DNA of 64,000 nt from a phage. Below are positions 10,688 to 39,644 of this stretch, in pieces. Made by a program: the position numbers and the translations under genes. The stretch is from the sequence record PX441839.1; one strand, 5' to 3'. The notes beneath the pieces were generated by a model. The model was not told the DNA's origin and made no database searches. It saw only the letters and a program-made list of their open reading frames with translations. Each line of letters opens with the position of its first letter. Within the stretch, counting starts at the first letter, position 1.

Positions 10688-13186
10688 ATGATACCTTTCC
10701 CATTATTAGGTGGAAAATCACCAACTCCACCACCGCCACTTCCAAAGGGCGTTTCTGGGTACTCAGGAACTACCTACATAGGTGAAGATGGTGAAACTTG
10801 GTCTTGGAACAGGCAACTGGAGAGATGGATTAAAAAAGATCCGTTTCCAGTTGACGAAGGGCATCCTGAACACTTCATGGTGGGGCCTGCAAAGATAGGC
10901 ACAGATGGTTCTTTCCGATACTTCAATACTGTAACCAACGCTTGGGAAGATGTTCCTAACGGGAGCACCTTGGGGATGGTCCCTCTGACCCTGACAGATG
11001 AAGGCGTAAACATAGGGACATCGGTATTTGTAGAGTATCCCATTTATCAATCCGCTGGGTATGCCGTAGGTCTTGGAGGGTTCGCAAGACTGCTTGGGAC
11101 GGAGGTACTGGGAAGACCAGATCTTATGGACCTGTACCTTATAGGAAGAAGAGGGGATTTCTTTTCACCTTCTCCTGCAAACCCTGACTCCACCAACGCA
11201 ATTCTCGTAATTCGAAATGTTAAAAGGGATAGGGTGTGGAATACTTACCTGAACATGGTTGTGGAAACAAGTGATGGGGAGATGTGGGCTTGGGGAATGA
11301 ACTTCTATAATCAGTACGGCCCTTGGATAAGAAGCGGAGTAACAAGTTCCAGTCAACCACACATGAAGATAAACCCATTCTCTAAAATATCTGATTTTCC
11401 AGTACCACCTGAGAAAATAAAAGATATCTTCCCCGGTGTAACAATGGTCATAGTTGCAGACACTGACGGGAAATTCTGGTCCAAAGGGATTAACATTGGT
11501 CAGTTTAACGATATTGATGACCAAATTAGGACAGCCTGGGTAGAGATACCCGCAGATAGGTTCCCAGGGTTTAAAAAGTTTTATCGGAGTCTTAACGGAA
11601 CAGGTGCCGCCAATGATCTTGCTTACACCAACTGCGTTTGGTATTTGACAGATACAGGGATAAGACATTTTGGAAATGTGTATGGAGTGATGGACGGTTC
11701 CCCACTTGTATCTGCAACAACTAGGGATCTCCCTGACAGTAAAGTTCACTCAGCCCCTGTAGGATTGCCTGAAAGGAATGATGAGCCTAAAATAGTGAGT
11801 TTTTCACTGGCCAGATCTTCTGACTATATCCTTATTGCTGTTTGGTATGATGACCCCGAAGAGATGTATGTTGCCTATCCTACTTCTGGACTTATTTGGG
11901 ACCACGCAGATGGAGTAACGTATGGGAGGAGATTCAATAAATCCTCAGCCCCTGTAGGGAAGCATAGGAACCCCATACTGGACTTCAATAAAGAGGCCAC
12001 CCTTATAACGGGGTTTGATGGAAAATTCTATGCTTCTGGGACCCCAAGTGTAAATAACGGGCTATACTCAAGAACCAGCCCAACCACTTTTATCGACCAG
12101 AAGATGCCATCCTCTCTCGTTTATCAGGTTGAGCTATCCGACTCTGTAAACGGAAAAACTCAACTGTTGAGAAATGATAGGCGTTCTTTAATGATAGCCG
12201 ACCTTTCGGGAGGAAGCAACTACTTTGGAAATGGAACTTTCTGGAAACCAACTGCAACGATTAAGTGGCCTGACTATCCAGACGCAATTCCAATAGTGTT
12301 CAAGAATGATGGTGTCACTATCTCGGGATCTGCTGAAAGGGTAGATACGTTTTGGGGGTGGAATGTTAGCAACTACAACACTGTCAGCAGTACAGCCGGA
12401 GACCAGTACGGTGCTCCCAGTGGGGATGCTGTGCATGTCTCAGGGGAAGGGCACCTTACAATCTGGAAAGATGATAGCAGTATCCTTGTTGGTGGTTACA
12501 ACATAGGTGGAGTGTTTGGTGCTTTTAACCAGTGGAAGCAACCACAAGGTGCTGGAAGGTGGGTAGGCACAGTAAGAGAGTCTTTTACTGGCACATCGAC
12601 AGTAAGCTGCGGAACCACTATTGCTTGGGATGGAAAAGATCATTACATATTTGGCAAAAACTACTGGGATGTTGCAAACGGACAACCAGTAATAAAGTTC
12701 AGTTCCTCTGCACCTGTAAAATGGAACAGTAAACAGGGATACCCGAACCTCCCTAATTTTATAAAATGGATTCCTGCAATTATGGGATATTCTGATGACG
12801 AGGGTTCTTTGCAACAACCCTTCTTTATGTATCGGGGTACTGACGGTCTGTTTTATGCTGCGGGTAGCAATACAACAGGTGCCTTGGCGACAGGGACCCC
12901 ACCTGAGACAAGGGATGAGCAAAGATGGACTTTTGAGGTAATGAAGGGATCTGAGGTGTTTGTTGGTAAAAATGTTAAGGTTTACCACGGACACGGAAAT
13001 ACCTCTTGTTTGTTGTTCGCTTGCGAGGGAAAGGTGTACGGTGTTGGATTACCTAACAGTATGAAATGGAATGACACCGGAACCATCCCTGACCCGTTCT
13101 TCCCTGGTTTCAACAGAAGGCTTAATGAAATCACCTACCTGATGGATTTGCCGGATGTTATCTATACCCGACCAATAGAAGAATAA
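10688..13186 (+). CDS. Putative distal fibre / receptor-binding protein
   Basis: 832 aa ORF last in the fibre module, proline-rich N-terminus, W/G/N-rich body; assignment by context only. Confidence 0.35.
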   Translation: MIPFPLLGGKSPTPPPPLPKGVSGYSGTTYIGEDGETWSWNRQLERWIKKDPFPVDEGHPEHFMVGPAKIGTDGSFRYFNTVTNAWEDVPNGSTLGMVPLTLTDEGVNIGTSVFVEYPIYQSAGYAVGLGGFARLLGTEVLGRPDLMDLYLIGRRGDFFSPSPANPDSTNAILVIRNVKRDRVWNTYLNMVVETSDGEMWAWGMNFYNQYGPWIRSGVTSSSQPHMKINPFSKISDFPVPPEKIKDIFPGVTMVIVADTDGKFWSKGINIGQFNDIDDQIRTAWVEIPADRFPGFKKFYRSLNGTGAANDLAYTNCVWYLTDTGIRHFGNVYGVMDGSPLVSATTRDLPDSKVHSAPVGLPERNDEPKIVSFSLARSSDYILIAVWYDDPEEMYVAYPTSGLIWDHADGVTYGRRFNKSSAPVGKHRNPILDFNKEATLITGFDGKFYASGTPSVNNGLYSRTSPTTFIDQKMPSSLVYQVELSDSVNGKTQLLRNDRRSLMIADLSGGSNYFGNGTFWKPTATIKWPDYPDAIPIVFKNDGVTISGSAERVDTFWGWNVSNYNTVSSTAGDQYGAPSGDAVHVSGEGHLTIWKDDSSILVGGYNIGGVFGAFNQWKQPQGAGRWVGTVRESFTGTSTVSCGTTIAWDGKDHYIFGKNYWDVANGQPVIKFSSSAPVKWNSKQGYPNLPNFIKWIPAIMGYSDDEGSLQQPFFMYRGTDGLFYAAGSNTTGALATGTPPETRDEQRWTFEVMKGSEVFVGKNVKVYHGHGNTSCLLFACEGKVYGVGLPNSMKWNDTGTIPDPFFPGFNRRLNEITYLMDLPDVIYTRPIEE

Positions 13187-13194
13187 CAACCAAT

Positions 13195-13226
13195 AAAAAG
13201 GCTCCCGAATGGGAGCCTTTTCTTTT
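13195..13226. terminator. Bidirectional terminator between convergent transcription units
   Basis: GGCTCCC-GAAT-GGGAGCC hairpin flanked by an A-run and a T-run; lies between the last plus-strand fibre gene and the last minus-strand gene. Confidence 0.6.
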
Positions 13227-13231
13227 ATGTA

Positions 13232-14431
13232 TTACAGGACATAAATCACGTGGTTAGGATATTGAAGCCCTACCGGAGCGAAGGGGATGTCATCATCGAA
13301 ATCCATAACATCTGGGGTGTAGTCCAGATGACCATCATCGCTTACCGGAACTTGAGGATTAGTATCCTGAGGTTTTTGTTCCAGTTGAGGTTCAGGGGCT
13401 TTTTCTGGAGACGCGTCTTTCCGAACAAGGTCTTCTGTCGCATTGATGAATCGGAAGGTTGTTTCCACATTCTCAATAAACTGATCAATACCTTCTTGAC
13501 TGTGTCGAGCAGCCAAGATACCGGATTGGCCCAGACGAGCACCAAACGCATAATCATCCATACCTTTGAACTCTTCCCGCAGCTTGGCCTTGATGGTATC
13601 CATAGCTTTCAGAACCTGCACCACAATAATTTGCTGATCGACGATAGCTGCATTTGGGAACATTGCATCTGTGATAGTCAGTGCGTTGCCTAAACGAATC
13701 GGCAAGTCATCCTTTCCACCTTTACGGGAACCACCTGCACCACCTGCACCTTTTGGACCATAAGCCTTGAAAGCACTGATTGAACCATCAGCCGCCCGCT
13801 GACCAGCCAAACGACCACCCTCTTGGATCTGGGAGAGTTGCTCGTCTGACAGCTTAACGGTAACATCGCCATTATCTGTCTTCACTACAACGTCTGAGCC
13901 GCTCACAGAGACGATTTCTCCGTAAACCTTAGTGGTTGCACCACCTGCACCTTGAGAGCCTCCCTGAGGTGTCTGAGAGCCTTGCGGAGCTACATCTCGA
14001 GCACCAGATGCATCGGTAATTTTAATTTTGTTCTTTTTACCCTCGGTGGAGGTTCGTTCATTACCCTCTCGGTCTTTGTAATATTTAACCTGCACTGGTA
14101 GACGAATCTTCATGCCTGGTTTAAGGCTTACATATTTGTCACCTTCTTTGATCTGGAACTGATCTTCGTATTTCAAGTTCTTAACTTCACCTTCTCCAAA
14201 AGAGATCCAAGCTGAATCTTCACCTTCTTTCAACAGGATAGAATAGCGATGGGTAGACTTGATAGTCTTACCTGCATTTGGACCCTTGTTGATGTGGGTG
14301 ATTTTAGGACTACCGTCCTCATTGATACGTTTGATATTGATACGTTCAATTGTTCCAGCGGCGACGTGTACAGTCACATCATTAACAGCATCATAAACAG
14401 AGTTAACAACTTGAATTTTAACTTCGGACAT
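13232..14431 (-). CDS. SSB-like protein carrying an internal copy of the bacterial SSB C-terminal tail
   Basis: 399 aa; G-rich low-complexity middle; near the C-terminus the peptide MDFDDDIPF matches the E. coli SSB tail but is followed by 15 further residues. Confidence 0.4.
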   Translation of the reverse strand: MSEVKIQVVNSVYDAVNDVTVHVAAGTIERINIKRINEDGSPKITHINKGPNAGKTIKSTHRYSILLKEGEDSAWISFGEGEVKNLKYEDQFQIKEGDKYVSLKPGMKIRLPVQVKYYKDREGNERTSTEGKKNKIKITDASGARDVAPQGSQTPQGGSQGAGGATTKVYGEIVSVSGSDVVVKTDNGDVTVKLSDEQLSQIQEGGRLAGQRAADGSISAFKAYGPKGAGGAGGSRKGGKDDLPIRLGNALTITDAMFPNAAIVDQQIIVVQVLKAMDTIKAKLREEFKGMDDYAFGARLGQSGILAARHSQEGIDQFIENVETTFRFINATEDLVRKDASPEKAPEPQLEQKPQDTNPQVPVSDDGHLDYTPDVMDFDDDIPFAPVGLQYPNHVIYVL

Positions 14432-15301: not shown

Positions 15302-15685
15302 TTATTTTCTCCCCTTCTTACGGTGATAAACTCCACGTTTGGACAGAGGAATTTCCTCTGCATCTCTTCCATCAACACCATCTTCACCAGGTTCACCTTG
15401 AGGACCCATTGGACCTGCTGGTCCCATTGGCCCCATAGGTCCTACAGGTCCAGTGACAACACGAATGTCTTTAGGTTTGTACAGAGAATAACCCAAGCAT
15501 CCAAACCAACCGATAAGTGTAATTACGCTCGGAGGCAAAAGGAAGAAGATAACAGTAAAGACAGAGATCATCCACTTATTCCTGTGATCCTTCTTCCATG
15601 CGATAATTATTGGGGAAAAACTAATTGCCAATAAAATTAACAGAAAAACAAGACCGAGAGTGATGGCAGCTTCTGCAATTATCAT
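15302..15685 (-). CDS. Membrane protein with collagen-like G-X-Y repeat
   Basis: N-terminal hydrophobic segments, then GPVGPMGPMGPAGPMGPQGEPGEDG. Confidence 0.45.
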   Translation of the reverse strand: MIIAEAAITLGLVFLLILLAISFSPIIIAWKKDHRNKWMISVFTVIFFLLPPSVITLIGWFGCLGYSLYKPKDIRVVTGPVGPMGPMGPAGPMGPQGEPGEDGVDGRDAEEIPLSKRGVYHRKKGRK

Positions 15686-16568: not shown

Positions 16569-17165
16569 TTAATCACAACTGCAAGATGACCCTGAGTCAC
16601 AGGAAGAATAGCTGTCTGAACCACCGTAGCTGGACGAAGAACTATACGATGAAGTGTAGTTGCAATTGTCATCACTGCGGTAAGAACTTGAACCAGACGT
16701 CACGATTGCAGTGGAAATACCTGCAACGGTGGCGATATTCAAAATATCATCACTATCCTGGTGAACTGGACGAGATGGACTTGAAACCGACATTGGACGA
16801 CCATTTGATCGTGACCGCTTAATGAACTCTTTCTTCGCCTTAGGTGGTAATTTACGACCTTTGGCGTAAGCTGGGAGTTCAACTTCTTTCAGTTTATCAT
16901 TCAGAGTCTTACCCTGTTTAATTACAACTTTGGAATCATCCTGTACGATCTCCGCGACCTTGACAGTGTTCTCTTTGGTATTGACTGCTGTGACCACCTC
17001 TTTGTCACCCAGAGGCTTGTCGATAGGTTTGGTTCCCACTTCAACCATTCGAACATTAACATTGGTAGGTTGTTTACTGATGTATTCATCAACCTTCACT
17101 TCGTCAATTTCAACCTTGGAGGAAGAGAACAGACCTTTAAACCAAGATACCAGCTTCTTAAACAT
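16569..17165 (-). CDS. Hypothetical protein with Ser/Cys-rich C-terminus
   Basis: 198 aa; C-terminal SSYSSSSSYGGSDSYSSCDSGSSCSCD. Confidence 0.4.
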   Translation of the reverse strand: MFKKLVSWFKGLFSSSKVEIDEVKVDEYISKQPTNVNVRMVEVGTKPIDKPLGDKEVVTAVNTKENTVKVAEIVQDDSKVVIKQGKTLNDKLKEVELPAYAKGRKLPPKAKKEFIKRSRSNGRPMSVSSPSRPVHQDSDDILNIATVAGISTAIVTSGSSSYRSDDNCNYTSSYSSSSSYGGSDSYSSCDSGSSCSCD

Positions 17166-36787: not shown

Positions 36788-37258
36788 TTAGAAAGGTGGT
36801 TGGTCATCCCAATCACTGTCGTCTTCCACAACCTCAGGTGTGACTTTAGATTCTTCCGGTTTGGAATCCTCTTTAATCTCCATCTGCTGTGGTTCAATGT
36901 CATCTTCATCATCAGGGATATCGTCTTCCTTGAGATCAGATAGACCTTTCTCCGAGTTCTCTTGTGATAATGGCTGCATTTTACCAACAGCCTTCTCAAC
37001 ATAATGTTCAGAACTTGGATCATCTTCTGGATGAATCGCATACCACTCTCGAAGAGTTTCATATGGACTGTCCAAGAAGCCTTCTGGCGGTTCTAAGTAA
37101 TCACCTGTGTCAATATCATAGAACACAGGGAACTTCCCGCTACGCCCGTGCTTACGGTCATCTAGAATTACAAACCAAGAGGTATTTCGCTCTTTCATTG
37201 GCAACTCTGGATCTTTGTTACGCTCAATACCCACCATAAAATAAGTGTTCTTTTTGTC
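36788..37258 (-). CDS. Primase-helicase (T7 gp4-like), exon 2
   Basis: Begins DKKNTYFMVGIERNK...DDRKHGRSG...YDIDTGDYLEP (helicase C-terminal motifs) and ends in an acidic tail DDSDWDDQPPF with terminal Phe, as in T7 gp4. Confidence 0.55.
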   Translation of the reverse strand, partial: DKKNTYFMVGIERNKDPELPMKERNTSWFVILDDRKHGRSGKFPVFYDIDTGDYLEPPEGFLDSPYETLREWYAIHPEDDPSSEHYVEKAVGKMQPLSQENSEKGLSDLKEDDIPDDEDDIEPQQMEIKEDSKPEESKVTPEVVEDDSDWDDQPPF

Positions 37259-38123
37259 CAGTGGGTTCGCTACTCCCACCCGGTGCGATTCCTGGCACCC
37301 GCCTACACTTTCGTGCAGGAACAGACTATATCATCACCTTTCGGTGCTCTCCGCTTCGGGACCGCTTGGCCCTAACGCCTTTCGGCTAGTCGTTGAGGTT
37401 TTTGCACGTTCTGGGTACATCTTCCAAGAATACAAGTCCCCGACCTCTTTCCAATCCCTTCGGGAGCGGATATTGAGGACTGCTGACCTTGTTACAGGTA
37501 ATCCACTATTATCGACAATCTTCTGCGCTGACCAACCCTCAGAAAGAAGCCTACAAATTTTGTGAACCTCTGCCTCTGTGACTTTGGACCTGTAATGATC
37601 CTCTCCCCTCTTTGGAAGCTTATTGGCAATAGAGTGCTCAAGATTTTGCCTACCAGTGACCCATTCCAGGTCATCTTTGTGGTTAAATTCCTTGCCTCTT
37701 TTATGATTAACTTCGGGTAAGTTCAGCGGGTTTGGAATATAAGTCTTAGCTACCAACCTGTGAACATACTCGGGCGTTCTCTTACCTTTAAGTATCACAT
37801 TGACAAAATAATACCCTGTACTCTTGTTTCGAATGTTCTTCAAAAATTTATTTGTGAACAAACTAAATACCTTGCCATCTTCTGTTACAAGATATTTACT
37901 ACCCTCTTCTATTGGTATCATGTTTCCCCCTTCTTTATTCTAACAAAAGGGTATAATACACAAAAGAATTTGAATATGCAACTTACCTGCTGATTACCCA
38001 ATCCTCTGTCTTTTCAAACATTCACGCCCACCCTTACGGGTCACGTTGTAGTGCCAGAGGCTCTAAGGGCTTCCCAGCAATTCAAAGAGTTTTACATGCG
38101 CTAAATCAACGCATCATCGCACG
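37259..38123 (-). mobile_element. Group I intron in the primase-helicase gene (boundaries approximate)
   Basis: P-like AATTGCTGGGAAG, R-like CAACGACTAGCC, S-like GATGATATAGTCTG on the transcribed strand; core clearly related to the polymerase intron; contains an HNH ORF. Confidence 0.5.
37334..37921 (-). CDS. HNH homing endonuclease (intron-encoded)
   Basis: YVHRLVAKTYIPNPLNLPEVNHKRGKEFNHKDDLEWVT; paralog of the ORF at 29952-30470. Confidence 0.65.
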   Translation of the reverse strand: MIPIEEGSKYLVTEDGKVFSLFTNKFLKNIRNKSTGYYFVNVILKGKRTPEYVHRLVAKTYIPNPLNLPEVNHKRGKEFNHKDDLEWVTGRQNLEHSIANKLPKRGEDHYRSKVTEAEVHKICRLLSEGWSAQKIVDNSGLPVTRSAVLNIRSRRDWKEVGDLYSWKMYPERAKTSTTSRKALGPSGPEAESTER

Positions 38124-39644
38124 AGAACCTGCAAACTGTGCCGACTGAACCTGACCACCAAATTCATGGGGTTTTCCAGATTCCGGTTTGTTCAAGTGAC
38201 AGAAACAATAATATGTGAAACCTAAGTCCTTTGCAAGGATAGAGATCTCATCTGAAAATCGTTCCAGTTCTGTGTTAGCATCACCTGGTGACATACCTTG
38301 CACAAGTCGAGTAATTGGGTCGATAATAATATCTTCACAACCCTCCACCAAGACTGCGTGGCGGATTGCACCCTTCACCTCGTCCCATACTGCACGACCA
38401 TAGTTGGAATAATAAATGATCTTATCGCCAACATAATCTGTAGCTTGGATTAGTTCTTCATGCTTGAAGTATCCACGTTGTCCTTCAAAGATTTCGTTAC
38501 CCCAAACATCTCGGTAAGTCCCATCTTCCTGAGGGATCATTACCTTTTCTGCGTTAATGAAGTCCTTGTGGTAAATTTTACCTGCAACCTTCTTACAAGT
38601 GATGTCGTTCTCTTCTTCAAACTTAAAGATACCGACTTTCTTCTTGTCTTTTTCAATGATGTGCTCGACAAGTTGGTTAACAAACTCGGACTTACCGATC
38701 TTAACACCTGCACCAAGGAAGTATCCCTCTCCTTTACGACGACCCAGTGTCAACTTGGTCATGGTAGGCCAAGGCCATGATTTACCAAGTTTTGGAATCT
38801 CGTGCGCTTTGTCTCGAAATTGTGCATACGTAGAGAAACCTTCTGGTACATAGTCCTTTGGCTTCATTGCTGCCCAGAATAATTGGTCAGCCATTCCCTT
38901 GATGTACATGTCGCATGGGTCCATGTCCTCTGGGATGTCAACAACCTTCATCTGAGGAATTACTGAGTAAACCGCTGCAACAGCATCCTTACCTTTCATA
39001 ATCCCCTTGGCCTTTTCTGCCTCCGTTGCACGATCAGCATCAAAAGCTACAATAATCTCTTCAAACTTGTTCAGAAGCTTGTAGTTGTTCTTCTGAGCTA
39101 GGTTCTGCACGGCATTAGATGTGCCGTTGGAAATTGAGACCACCGTGAAGTTTGGTTTACGTGCATTTCCATCCTTAGATTTATACTTTTCTCGGAGAAC
39201 CTGCCACAACACTGCCGCATCGTACTCGCCCTCCGTGATAAAAATCATGCGACGTGAGGATTTATTTGCACCCTCCAGACCAAACAGGTCACAAGCGACA
39301 GATTGGAAACCAATCGTACTAAAGTGGCCCTTCTGTTGCTTAGGAATGGTCAGATCTCGCTTCTTAAAGCCGACGATCTTACCCTCCAGTGTGTAGGGAA
39401 AATAGTGCGCCTCTGGTGTCATCCCATCCTTGGCAGACAGCTTAGTCCTGATTCCAAAGCGCTCTGCCGTCTTCTGATCGATACCTCGCTCAGGGATGGC
39501 TTTAAATGGGTAAGTTTTTACATCTTCTACTGTTTCTTCAACCTTGTTCATACGACCACCCCCTACTGAACGAGATACCGATGCCTTCGGGTTCTTGTAC
39601 CCCGTCTTATAACCACCAAACAGACCTTCACCTAATGTGCTCAC
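38124..39644 (-). CDS. Primase-helicase (T7 gp4-like), exon 1
   Basis: TOPRIM FITEGEYDA; Walker A GAGVKIGKSEF; H3-like CHLNKPESGKPHEFGG; last few ORF-track codons (38106-38123) interpreted as intron read-through. Confidence 0.7.

What the first reader, a model, noticed from the sequence alone, without database searches (positions are those of the whole stretch)
13232..14431. SSB-like protein with an internal copy of the host SSB C-terminal tail motif
Near the C-terminus the protein contains MDFDDDIPF, matching the E. coli SSB tail that recruits many SSB-interacting proteins, but here the motif is followed by 15 more residues (APVGLQYPNHVIYVL) rather than ending the protein. Since partner binding normally uses the free terminal Phe, this may be a masked mimic or decoy, or may be activated by processing. 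The N-terminal half does not look like canonical E. coli SSB to me, so the fold assignment is tentative.
Basis: partly seen in the sequence, partly recalled or inferred. Interest (0 to 1): 0.6.

Follow-up and report, generated by a model that had tools for sequence, protein, structure and literature searches.

The report
Phage SSB with capped host-like tail
This phage gene encodes a non-canonical single-stranded-DNA-binding protein whose copy of the host SSB docking tail (MDFDDDIPF) is followed by a conserved 15-residue cap; the same cap ends many unrelated phage SSBs, which is unexpected because the tail is thought to need a free end to work.

Summary
ORF 13232-14431 (-) encodes 399 aa. MDFDDDIPF occupies residues 376-384 and is followed by APVGLQYPNHVIYVL. 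An independent isolate, Salmonella phage SSBI34 (97.5% identity), has the same layout.

The protein belongs to PHROG 4477 of Vequintavirinae. The model shows two OB-like barrels, a four-helix bundle and a disordered tail. Fold searches hit SSB, RPA and LEF-3 OB folds. A 2026 preprint calls what appears to be the Vequintavirus orthologue (Bas52_0087) an SSB-like trigger of the DRT10 defence system.

The new point is the extension. It is a conserved 14-16-residue module, A-P-[IV]-G-L-Q-Y followed by a hydrophobic C-terminus. It occurs in 34 of 119 family members. It also ends canonical PF00436 SSBs, at least four other protein types with no Pfam match, and one primase/helicase. Conserved residues use all synonymous codons, so selection acts on the peptide. 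Its distribution is very patchy, and sequence similarity breaks exactly after the Phe codon. HNH homing-endonuclease genes often sit at that spot.

The function is untested. The most likely role is a cap or second docking motif that changes which partners the tail engages. I found no paper describing it.

The parts
13232..14431 (-). CDS of 399 aa: non-canonical phage SSB-like protein (PHROG 4477)
   Evidence: ORF. PHROG 4477 hit at E=7e-92 over residues 7-384. No Pfam hit above threshold. 97.5% identical to SSBI34 QYC52541.1.
13997..14431 (-). Residues 1-145: first beta-barrel (OB-like) domain
13754..13939 (-). Residues 165-226: second small beta barrel. It is preceded by a Gly/Gln/Ser-rich linker (residues 146-164, nt 13940-13996).
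   Evidence: AF2 shows strands 167-224 at pLDDT about 90, and a linker with pLDDT about 41. There is a weak Myosin_N/SH3-like Pfam hit at 171-196. The preprint describes two OB folds in what appears to be the orthologue.
13412..13714 (-). Residues 240-340: four-helix bundle, the putative oligomerisation domain. It contains the invariant residue D241.
   Evidence: AF2 shows helices 243-257, 267-287, 293-308 and 315-339 at pLDDT above 90. D241 is invariant in 53 of 53 sequences and aligns with D252, the DRT10 escape site D252V.
13307..13411 (-). Residues 341-375: Pro/Gln/Glu-rich intrinsically disordered linker
   Evidence: pLDDT is 52-66 with no secondary structure. The region is not conserved in the alignment.
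13280..13306 (-). Residues 376-384, MDFDDDIPF: copy of the host SSB C-terminal tip, here in an internal position
   Evidence: Identical to the E. coli SSB C-terminus. Pro and Phe are invariant in both tip-only (85/85) and extended (34/34) family members.
13235..13279 (-). Residues 385-399, APVGLQYPNHVIYVL: conserved C-terminal extension module
   Evidence: In extended family members, A1 is 34/34, P2 32/34, G4 30/34, L5 34/34, Q6 28/34 and Y7 34/34, and the end is hydrophobic. The same module occurs on unrelated SSBs and on a helicase. All synonymous codons are used at the conserved residues.
13195..13222 (.). Bidirectional intrinsic terminator between this gene and the convergent 832-aa gene. 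There is no room for a homing-endonuclease gene here.
   Evidence: Terminator scan on both strands. Sequence.
36788..37279 (-). C-terminal fragment of the split primase/helicase. It ends in an SSB-tip-like acidic tail, ...DDSDWDDQPPF*, with no extension.
   Evidence: Translation. PHROG 239 (DNA primase/helicase) positions 546-653 match here, contiguous with positions 96-545 matched by ORF 38106-39644.

Best explanation
The gene encodes the phage's own ssDNA-binding protein, built on a non-canonical plan: two OB-type barrels, a helical domain (probably for oligomerisation), and a disordered linker that carries a near-perfect copy of the host SSB docking tip.

In this phage the tip is not the end of the protein. 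It is followed by a separately conserved 15-residue module with two parts: A-P-[IV]-G-L-Q-Y, then a hydrophobic C-terminus ([IL]-[YHF]-[small]-[LIM]-COOH).

I infer that this module is a short linear interaction motif that caps the tip. It removes the free Phe carboxylate that canonical SSB partners such as ExoI, RecQ, PriA and the chi subunit use. It also offers a second docking surface. The result would be a change in which host or phage partners the SSB-coated DNA recruits. The identity of the partner is unknown.

The module is evolutionarily mobile. The conserved DNA that encodes DFDDDIPF acts as a recombination breakpoint and as a landing site for HNH homing endonuclease genes. This lets 3' ends with or without the extension be swapped between related and unrelated SSB genes.

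What is shown: the sequence, the fold class, the conservation, protein-level selection, the patchy distribution, the breakpoints and the neighbouring endonuclease genes.

What is inferred: ssDNA binding, the capping and partner-switching function, and endonuclease-driven spread.
For: SSB nature:
- The AF2 model shows two barrels, a helical bundle and a disordered tail.
- BFVD Foldseek returns many annotated phage SSBs.
- The gene lies in the same leftward gene block as a family A DNA polymerase, a primase/helicase, a PIF1-like helicase and a ligase.
- Some depositors and UniRef already name orthologues SSB.
- In Bas52_0087, apparently the orthologue, DRT10 escape mutations D252V and Y351C were mapped.

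The extension is a selected module:
- Its residues are conserved across relatives at 28-35% identity.
- It is present on PF00436 SSBs of lambdoid mEpX2, Hafnia phage Pocitis76 and Cronobacter phage JK004. It is also on prophage SSB fragments from E. coli, Salmonella, Proteus and Klebsiella.
- It is present on 38 IMG/VR contigs, including four N-terminal types with no Pfam match.
- It ends the primase/helicase of a Klebsiella phage.
- All 4 Ala, 4 Pro, 4 Gly and 6 Leu codons are used at the conserved positions.
- The tip is as conserved when internal as when terminal.

Mobility:
- At least 19 state changes are needed on a 115-sequence tree.
- One 90%-identity cluster holds both the 408-aa and 423-aa forms.
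- Among rV5-like genomes the split is 30 to 30 in the top 60 rows, with similarity ending at nt 1223/1224, the Phe codon.
- The Kashira and ChuuTotoro genes diverge exactly after TTT.
- Endonuclease genes overlap or directly follow the 3' end in L011, L014, L042 and L010.
Against: - No biochemical data exist for ssDNA binding by any member of this family.
- The partner of the extension is unknown. AF2 gives the tail low confidence (pLDDT 48-66) and shows no docking within the protein.
- If the extension simply blocked the tip, the strong conservation of DFDDDIPF upstream of it would be hard to explain. Explaining it needs either a partner that tolerates an internal tip or a function within the same molecule.
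- Closely related phages do well with or without the extension, so it is not essential.
- Only about 2 of 38 viral contigs have an adjacent endonuclease gene, so endonuclease-driven spread cannot be the only route.
- Whether the phage has another SSB outside the 64-kb window was not checked.
Confidence: 0.55

Rival explanations
1. The extension is an artefact. A sequencing error, frameshift or recent stop-codon loss makes the ORF read through into intergenic DNA, and the real protein ends at DDDIPF.
For: Most homologues (85 of 119) do end at DDDIPF.
Against: An independent isolate has the same extension with its own substitutions. The extension is conserved in sequence and length (14-16 aa) in 34 family members and in many unrelated SSBs. 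In relatives without it there is no remnant downstream of the stop codon.
Confidence: 0.01
2. The extension is a functionally neutral passenger. It would be the 5' edge or scar of a homing-endonuclease cassette that inserts right after the Phe codon, carried along by co-conversion and left behind when the endonuclease gene is deleted.
For: In rV5-like phages the extension and an endonuclease VII-like gene are present or absent together. The endonuclease ATG lies inside the extension codons (CAA TAT GGC). L014 has the same arrangement. Breakpoints fall exactly at the Phe codon.
Against: Conserved amino acids are encoded by every synonymous codon. This indicates long-term selection on the peptide rather than recent spread of one DNA segment. 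About 36 of 38 extension-bearing viral contigs, this window, SSBI34, Kashira, mEpX2 and JK004 have no adjacent endonuclease gene. The same endonuclease family also sits behind a tip-only allele with a normal stop codon (ChuuTotoro). An endonuclease gene therefore does not need the extension.
Confidence: 0.1
3. The extension is a pro-peptide. The protein would be made with a masked tip, and a host or phage protease would remove the 15 residues after Phe384 to unmask a functional DDDIPF-COOH at the right time or place.
For: The tip is as conserved in extended as in terminal forms, as expected if it is eventually exposed. The junction F|A-P is nearly invariant (A 34/34, P 32/34), which could define a cleavage site. 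The extension is disordered and accessible.
Against: No protease or cleavage motif is known for this junction. The carriers range from temperate lambdoid phages to 140-kb lytic phages, so the protease would have to be a host enzyme. Conservation extends over the whole 15 residues, including the extreme C-terminus, which is more than a cleavage site needs.
Confidence: 0.12
4. The extension is a degradation or turnover tag. Its non-polar C-terminus would be recognised by a host AAA+ protease, limiting the level or lifetime of the phage SSB.
For: The last four residues follow a hydrophobic-x-small-hydrophobic pattern (IYVL, IHAL, LNCM, LWVM). From my own knowledge, this resembles non-polar C-terminal degrons such as the ssrA tag ...YALAA. 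The patchy distribution fits an accessory regulatory feature.
Against: The conserved N-terminal half, A-P-[IV]-G-L-Q-Y, is not explained by a simple C-terminal degron. None of the sequences ends in the LAA-type residues that ClpX prefers. There is no experimental support.
Confidence: 0.08
5. The protein is not a working SSB. It would be a decoy that titrates host SSB-interacting proteins, or poisons host SSB function, without coating ssDNA.
For: There is no PF00436 match and only moderate structural scores. The preprint speculates that the Bas52 protein competes with or displaces SbcB.
Against: The architecture (OB folds, oligomerisation domain, linker and tip) is that of an SSB. The gene is conserved in hundreds of Vequintavirinae genomes. 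The same tail module sits on bona fide PF00436 SSBs. No canonical SSB was seen in the window, although this was not searched exhaustively.
Confidence: 0.1

Closest known systems
E. coli SSB and its C-terminal tip (SSB-Ct, ...PPMDFDDDIPF-COOH)
   Same: The nine-residue acidic and hydrophobic motif is identical. It follows a disordered Pro/Gln-rich linker attached to OB-fold DNA-binding domains.
   Different: There is no PF00436 homology. The protein has two barrels plus a helical bundle instead of one OB fold that tetramerises. The motif is internal and followed by 15 conserved residues, so the free Phe carboxylate used by the known partners is absent.
Bas52_0087 of Vequintavirus Bas52, the SSB-like trigger of the DRT10 (UG17) defence system (bioRxiv 10.64898/2026.04.29.721553)
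   Same: It appears to be the same protein family. The Vequintavirus cluster P0111 and bas49_0089 have D at position 252 and Y at 351, as in the reported escape mutants. D252 aligns with the invariant D241 here. The preprint describes two predicted OB folds, a disordered C-terminal region and an FDDDIPF motif.
   Different: Identity to this window's protein is only about 28%. The preprint treats the motif as a 'C-tip' and does not mention residues after it. In the Vequintavirus orthologues I read, the motif is either terminal (Bas56) or followed by the extension and an overlapping endonuclease gene (Bas49, Bas50, Bas54). I did not retrieve the Bas52 sequence itself.
Bacteriophage T7 gp2.5 (SSB) and gp4 (primase-helicase), with acidic C-terminal tails ending in Phe
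   Same: The logic matches: both the SSB and the primase/helicase of one phage carry similar acidic tails ending in an aromatic residue. Here the helicase C-fragment ends ...DWDDQPPF. In Klebsiella phage vB_Kpn_K54_rec6 the helicase ends ...DDDTPF followed by the same extension. The account of the T7 tails is from my own knowledge and the summary.
Phage HK620 SSB, whose C-terminal NDYPPF recruits the Sak4 annealase (PMC5928155)
   Same: It is a phage SSB whose tip-like last six residues mediate partner recruitment. The ...QPPF end of this window's helicase fragment resembles NDYPPF.
   Different: The HK620 tip is terminal, and no extension is described.
Free-standing HNH/endonuclease VII homing endonuclease genes next to conserved phage genes
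   Same: Related phages have endonuclease genes (PHROG 2340 and 1035) inserted exactly at the 3' end of this gene, with presence/absence polymorphism and sharp breakpoints.
   Different: This window has no endonuclease gene at that position, only a terminator. Cleavage specificity for the tip-coding DNA is inferred, not shown.

Membership tests
Canonical bacterial/phage SSB (Pfam PF00436) | Sequence match to the PF00436 OB domain | tested here: not met
   The Pfam scan returns only sub-threshold SH3-like hits. PF00436 is readily found in control SSBs that carry the same tail.
Canonical bacterial/phage SSB (Pfam PF00436) | OB-fold DNA-binding domain | tested here: met
Canonical bacterial/phage SSB (Pfam PF00436) | Disordered linker ending in an acidic tip whose Phe is the C-terminal residue | tested here: not met
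   The linker and tip are present, but 15 residues follow the Phe. This feature is met in 85 of 119 homologues.
Canonical bacterial/phage SSB (Pfam PF00436) | Binds ssDNA and forms homo-oligomers | not testable with these tools
   This needs EMSA or fluorescence titration and SEC-MALS on purified protein.
PHROG 4477 / Vequintavirinae two-OB SSB-like family (Bas52_0087 type) | Full-length sequence homology | tested here: met
   PHROG 4477 hit at E=7e-92 over residues 7-384. There are 127 homologues, with E down to 1e-254, and matches in 249 phage records.
PHROG 4477 / Vequintavirinae two-OB SSB-like family (Bas52_0087 type) | Two barrels, helical domain, disordered tail carrying DFDDDIPF, and the invariant Asp at the start of the helical domain | tested here: met
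   D241 is invariant in 53 of 53 sequences and corresponds to D252 of the Vequintavirus orthologue.
PHROG 4477 / Vequintavirinae two-OB SSB-like family (Bas52_0087 type) | Triggers the DRT10 defence system | not testable with these tools
   This was shown only for Bas52 in the preprint.
T7 gp2.5-type SSB | Acidic tail with a C-terminal aromatic residue, shared with the phage primase-helicase | tested here: inconclusive
   The helicase fragment ends ...DWDDQPPF-COOH. The SSB-like protein has the acidic and aromatic motif, but not at its end.
T7 gp2.5-type SSB | Homology to the gp2.5 fold or sequence | not tested
Homing-endonuclease cassette at the SSB 3' end | An HNH/endonuclease VII gene adjacent to or overlapping the extension | tested here: not met
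   In the window only 45 nt, containing a terminator, separate this stop codon from that of the convergent gene. The feature is met in relatives L011, L014, L042 and L010.

The most novel reading that the evidence does not exclude
The A-P-[IV]-G-L-Q-Y...hydrophobic-COOH extension would be a previously unrecognised, widespread interaction module of phage SSBs. It would convert the host-SSB tip mimic into a different tool. One possibility is a two-part, high-affinity ligand or inhibitor for one particular host SSB-interacting protein or defence sensor; ExoI/SbcB is an obvious candidate given the DRT10 link. At the same time it would deny access to the carboxylate-dependent partners. The module would spread between unrelated SSB and helicase genes by recombination and homing-endonuclease co-conversion at the conserved tip-coding DNA. 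That would make it a mobile 'tail cassette' in the contest between phage and host.
Probability: 0.3. Interest if true: 0.8.

Novelty: new variant of a known kind. Interest (0 to 1): 0.6.

Why it matters
The SSB C-terminal tip is the central hub that recruits more than a dozen genome-maintenance proteins. Structural work indicates that it docks through its terminal Phe and free carboxylate.

A large, naturally occurring set of phage SSBs keeps a perfect tip but buries it under a conserved 15-residue cap. Closely related tip-only and capped alleles occur in phages that are already in culture, such as BASEL Bas49, Bas50 and Bas54 versus Bas56. This is a ready-made natural experiment on what the free end is needed for, and on how phages retune or evade the host SSB interactome.

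The finding also bears on current models of defence systems that sense phage SSBs (DRT10, Retron-Eco8, Hna, DARNA). The DRT10 preprint assumes a functional 'C-tip' on a protein family in which the motif is often internal.

Finally, homing endonuclease genes at the tip-coding DNA suggest a way for tail modules to move between unrelated replication proteins.

Tried and rejected
- **Pfam on the ORF:** only sub-threshold SH3-like hits.
- **PDB sequence profile search:** only the SSB tail matched; the other hits are low-complexity (huntingtin polyQ) or tail-like noise.
- **Tail-only profile search:** The 46-aa version returned only short fragments, apparently because of a length filter. It confirmed prophage SSB tails but gave no domain survey.
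- **Representative-library search with tail fragments:** 89 clusters at E<=0.001. This library carries no annotation, so it serves only as a lower bound.
- **Literature:** no paper contains DIPFAP, APIGLQY, APVGLQY, APVTLPF, APIGLPY or IPFAPV; the single IPFAPI hit is an unrelated FAPI PET-tracer paper. The HK620 Sak4/SSB and DARNA papers do not discuss any extension.
- **Bas52 sequence:** I tried to find the record to see whether Bas52_0087 itself carries the extension. I found Bas49, Bas50, Bas54 and Bas56 but not Bas52.
- **Known motifs, checked by eye from memory:** I compared the extension with the beta-clamp motif (QL[SD]LF, QLxLxL), the PIP box, the FxxA RecA/RAD51 motif and ssrA or SulA degrons. 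None fits convincingly, so none is claimed.
- **Other carriers in the window:** I looked for another ORF with the extended tail and found none. Only the helicase fragment has a tip-like end.
- **Promoter:** the consensus scan found no sigma-70-like promoter on the gene's strand upstream of the ATG.
- **Intramolecular docking:** the AF2 model shows no confident docking of the tail onto the rest of the protein.
Full report
**1. The observation**

The minus-strand ORF 13232..14431 encodes 399 aa and ends ...DYTPDVMDFDDDIPFAPVGLQYPNHVIYVL*. MDFDDDIPF (residues 376-384, nt 13280-13306) is identical to the last nine residues of E. coli SSB. A profile of the family finds the SSB tail as its only significant match in the PDB (1eqq and 7f2n...EPPMDFDDDIPF).

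Fifteen further residues (385-399, nt 13235-13279) precede the stop codon. The gene has an AAGGAG ribosome-binding site, read directly. It is followed by a bidirectional terminator at 13195-13222. The convergent 832-aa gene ends at 13186.

The window comes from a Vequintavirinae phage. Its closest record is Salmonella phage SSBI34 at 97.5% aa identity for this protein. SSBI34 has the same in-frame extension with its own substitutions (DFDEDIPF, NHAIYVL). A sequencing error or hidden frameshift is therefore excluded.

**2. What the protein is**

Pfam gives nothing above threshold. PHROGs places the protein in family 4477, function unknown, at E=7e-92. Homologues occur in 249 phage records, mostly 130-155-kb Vequintavirinae and relatives, and in 127 protein clusters.

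An AlphaFold2 model built on 53 homologues has a mean pLDDT of 83.8. It shows:
- a beta barrel at residues 1-145;
- a low-confidence Gly/Gln linker;
- a second small barrel at residues 165-226;
- a four-helix bundle at residues 240-340;
- a disordered tail at residues 341-399.

The gene lies in the same leftward block as a family A DNA polymerase, a primase/helicase, a PIF1-like helicase and a ligase. Some depositors and UniRef already label orthologues as SSB.

A 2026 preprint (10.64898/2026.04.29.721553) identified Bas52_0087 of a BASEL Vequintavirus as the phage factor needed to trigger the DRT10 reverse-transcriptase defence. It describes two predicted OB folds, a disordered C-terminal region and an FDDDIPF 'C-tip'. 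The Vequintavirus members of this family have D at position 252 and Y at 351, matching the reported escape mutations. D252 aligns with D241 of the window protein, which is invariant in 53 of 53 sequences.

I conclude that this is the phage's non-canonical SSB. ssDNA binding itself remains untested.

**3. The extension is a conserved module**

Among 119 family members with a recognisable tip, 85 end exactly at ...DIPF and 34 carry 14-16 further residues. In the extended forms:
- A1 is 34/34, P2 32/34, position 3 is I or V, G4 is 30/34, L5 34/34, Q6 28/34 and Y7 34/34;
- the end follows a [IL]-[YHFW]-[A/V/C/S]-[LIM]-COOH pattern.

The acidic tip is as conserved when internal as when terminal. 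Pro and Phe are invariant in both classes.

A tblastn search with the tail peptide showed the same two-part tail on proteins unrelated to this family:
- canonical PF00436 SSBs of lambdoid phage mEpX2 (...DDDIPFAPVTLPFPRHAIHAI), Hafnia phage Pocitis76 and Cronobacter phage JK004;
- the DnaB-type primase/helicase of Klebsiella phage vB_Kpn_K54_rec6 (...DDDTPFAPIGLQYAKHAIYVI);
- many prophage SSB fragments from E. coli, Salmonella, Proteus, Providencia and Klebsiella.

A degenerate DNA pattern for DIPFAP[IV]GLQY found 38 IMG/VR contigs. Their carriers include PF00436 SSBs and four other N-terminal types with no Pfam match.

A profile of tail fragments found 89 representative clusters at E<=0.001. 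This is a lower bound on how widespread the tail is.

At the conserved residues every synonymous codon is used: 4 Ala, 4 Pro, 4 Gly, 6 Leu, 2 Gln and 2 Tyr. The conservation is therefore at the peptide level, not a recently copied piece of DNA.

I found no paper containing any of these extension sequences.

**4. Patchy distribution, sharp breakpoints and homing endonucleases**

On a neighbour-joining tree of 115 full-length members, the tip/extension state needs at least 19 changes. A single 90%-identity cluster contains both 408-aa (tip) and 423-aa (extended) proteins.

Among rV5-like genomes at about 97% nucleotide identity, 30 of the 60 best rows match the whole gene (nt 1-1272). The other 30 match only nt 1-1223 or 1-1224, which is up to the Phe codon. 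In the former an endonuclease VII-like gene overlaps the 3' end, and its ATG lies inside the extension codons (CAA TAT GGC). In the latter both the extension and the endonuclease gene are absent (Bas49 versus Bas56).

Other cases are similar:
- The closest extended relative of the window gene (P0002, 71% identity) has an overlapping 161-aa endonuclease gene (PHROG 2340). The closest tip-only relative (P0003) has none.
- Serratia phages Kashira (extended) and ChuuTotoro (tip-only) are identical up to TTT and unrelated afterwards.
- ChuuTotoro has an unannotated endonuclease ORF of the same family, 141 aa long, starting 15 nt after its stop codon.
- An unrelated 153-aa SSB-type protein on contig L042 has the extension followed by the same zinc-finger endonuclease type.

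All four combinations of extension and endonuclease gene therefore exist. The window has the extension without an endonuclease gene.

I infer that the conserved tip-coding DNA is a recombination and homing hot spot, through which alternative 3' ends are exchanged. Only about 2 of 38 extension-bearing viral contigs have an adjacent endonuclease gene. The peptide is under selection. For both reasons the extension is not merely an endonuclease scar.

**5. How it most likely works**

Established knowledge, including the summaries, holds that SSB partners dock on the C-terminal tip. C-terminal fusions are avoided for that reason. A 15-residue extension should therefore block carboxylate-dependent docking.

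Yet the tip stays fully conserved, and the extension has its own conserved N-terminal and C-terminal elements and a nearly fixed length. The simplest reading is a disordered linear motif (pLDDT 48-66) that both caps the tip and provides a second docking surface. This would change partner specificity.

The carriers have very different replication systems, from lambdoid phages that rely on host replication and Erf recombination to 140-kb phages with their own replisome. Their hosts appear to be mostly Gammaproteobacteria. I therefore favour a conserved host partner, or a host sensor that is being avoided.

The presence of the same tail on a primase/helicase, and of a tip-like ...DWDDQPPF end on this phage's own helicase fragment, recalls T7. 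In T7, gp2.5 and gp4 share tails that bind the polymerase, so a replisome partner is also possible.

The partner was not identified. Processing, a degron role and neutrality are treated as rival explanations with lower probability.

**6. Comparison with what is known, and novelty**

The protein works like an SSB but is not a PF00436 member. It belongs to the Vequintavirinae two-OB SSB-like family (PHROG 4477; Bas52_0087 type). The host-tip mimicry on phage SSBs is known.

The new elements are these:
- a conserved, widespread cap after the tip;
- its sporadic distribution;
- its link to a recombination and homing hot spot.

The preprint on Bas52_0087 speaks of a C-tip and does not mention residues beyond it. 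In the orthologues I inspected the motif is either terminal or followed by the extension. I could not retrieve Bas52 itself.

I rate this a new variant of a known kind, with interest 0.6. A specialist on SSB would find an internal but perfectly conserved tip surprising. Natural allele pairs in cultured phages make it directly testable.

**7. Limits**

- No biochemistry exists for this family.
- Structural scores are moderate because the model has several flexibly linked domains.
- The genome outside the 64-kb window was not screened for a second SSB.
- The IMG/VR set was retrieved with an amino-acid-level pattern. It shows codon diversity but cannot by itself measure amino-acid conservation; that comes.
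- The tree used for the parsimony count is a simple neighbour-joining tree.

Noticed in passing
window 36788-39644 (-): The DNA primase/helicase gene is split. ORF 38106-39644 matches PHROG 239 positions 96-545 and ORF 36788-37279 matches positions 546-653. An HNH endonuclease gene (37334-37921, PHROG 59) lies between them. Whether the two halves are joined (by an intron or intein) or work as separate chains was not examined.
   Followed up: partly
window 36791-36814 (-): The helicase C-terminal fragment ends ...DDSDWDDQPPF*. This is an acidic tail ending in Phe that resembles an SSB tip and the NDYPPF end of HK620 SSB. The phage's helicase and its SSB-like protein therefore both carry tip-like tails, as in T7 gp4 and gp2.5.
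   Followed up: partly
L010 2709-3134 (Serratia phage ChuuTotoro, ON287369.1): An unannotated 141-aa ORF begins 15 nt after the SSB-like gene. It is an HNH-type endonuclease closely similar to the one overlapping the extension in L014 (shared ...FVEAHHCDYNKPL..WLCD.CHK.WH). The deposited record shows a 475-nt 'intergenic' gap there.
   Followed up: yes
L011 1544-2167, L014 3714-4199, L042 (downstream of the SSB): The endonuclease genes found at the 3' end of different SSB genes share an N-terminal Cys-rich segment (C..CG..K....FYKH....DG....CK.C). This suggests one endonuclease lineage that targets the conserved tip-coding DNA of otherwise unrelated SSB genes.
   Followed up: partly
window 15302-15685 (-): A 127-aa ORF has a hydrophobic N-terminal half followed by a collagen-like run, GPVGPMGPMGPAGPMGPQGEPGEDGVDG. 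The equivalent gene on contig L014 has a weak Pfam Collagen hit.
   Followed up: no
window 10688-13186 (+): The convergent 832-aa gene next to the SSB-like gene lies beside tail-fibre genes in relatives. It carries RCC1/UVR8-like or WD40_RLD-like beta-propeller signals (SSBI34 annotation note; faint Pfam hit on L013).
   Followed up: no
search of the phages collection: Sixteen records named 'Campylobacter phage' (for example C2, D1, A135, A147) are about 97% identical in this gene to rV5-like E. coli phages. This suggests mislabelled hosts or mixed lysates in those deposits.
   Followed up: no
window 16569-17165 (-): A 198-aa ORF ends in a Ser/Tyr/Cys-rich low-complexity tail, ...SSYSSSSSYGGSDSYSSCDSGSSCSCD.
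   Followed up: no
P0116-P0120 and L026 (239-270 aa proteins): A shorter family has one small N-terminal barrel plus the same helical domain (KDLPIRLGNA...), linker, tip and extension (...DIPFAPVGLQYPQLLWVM). It looks like a one-barrel version of the window protein and has no Pfam or PHROG hit.
   Followed up: partly
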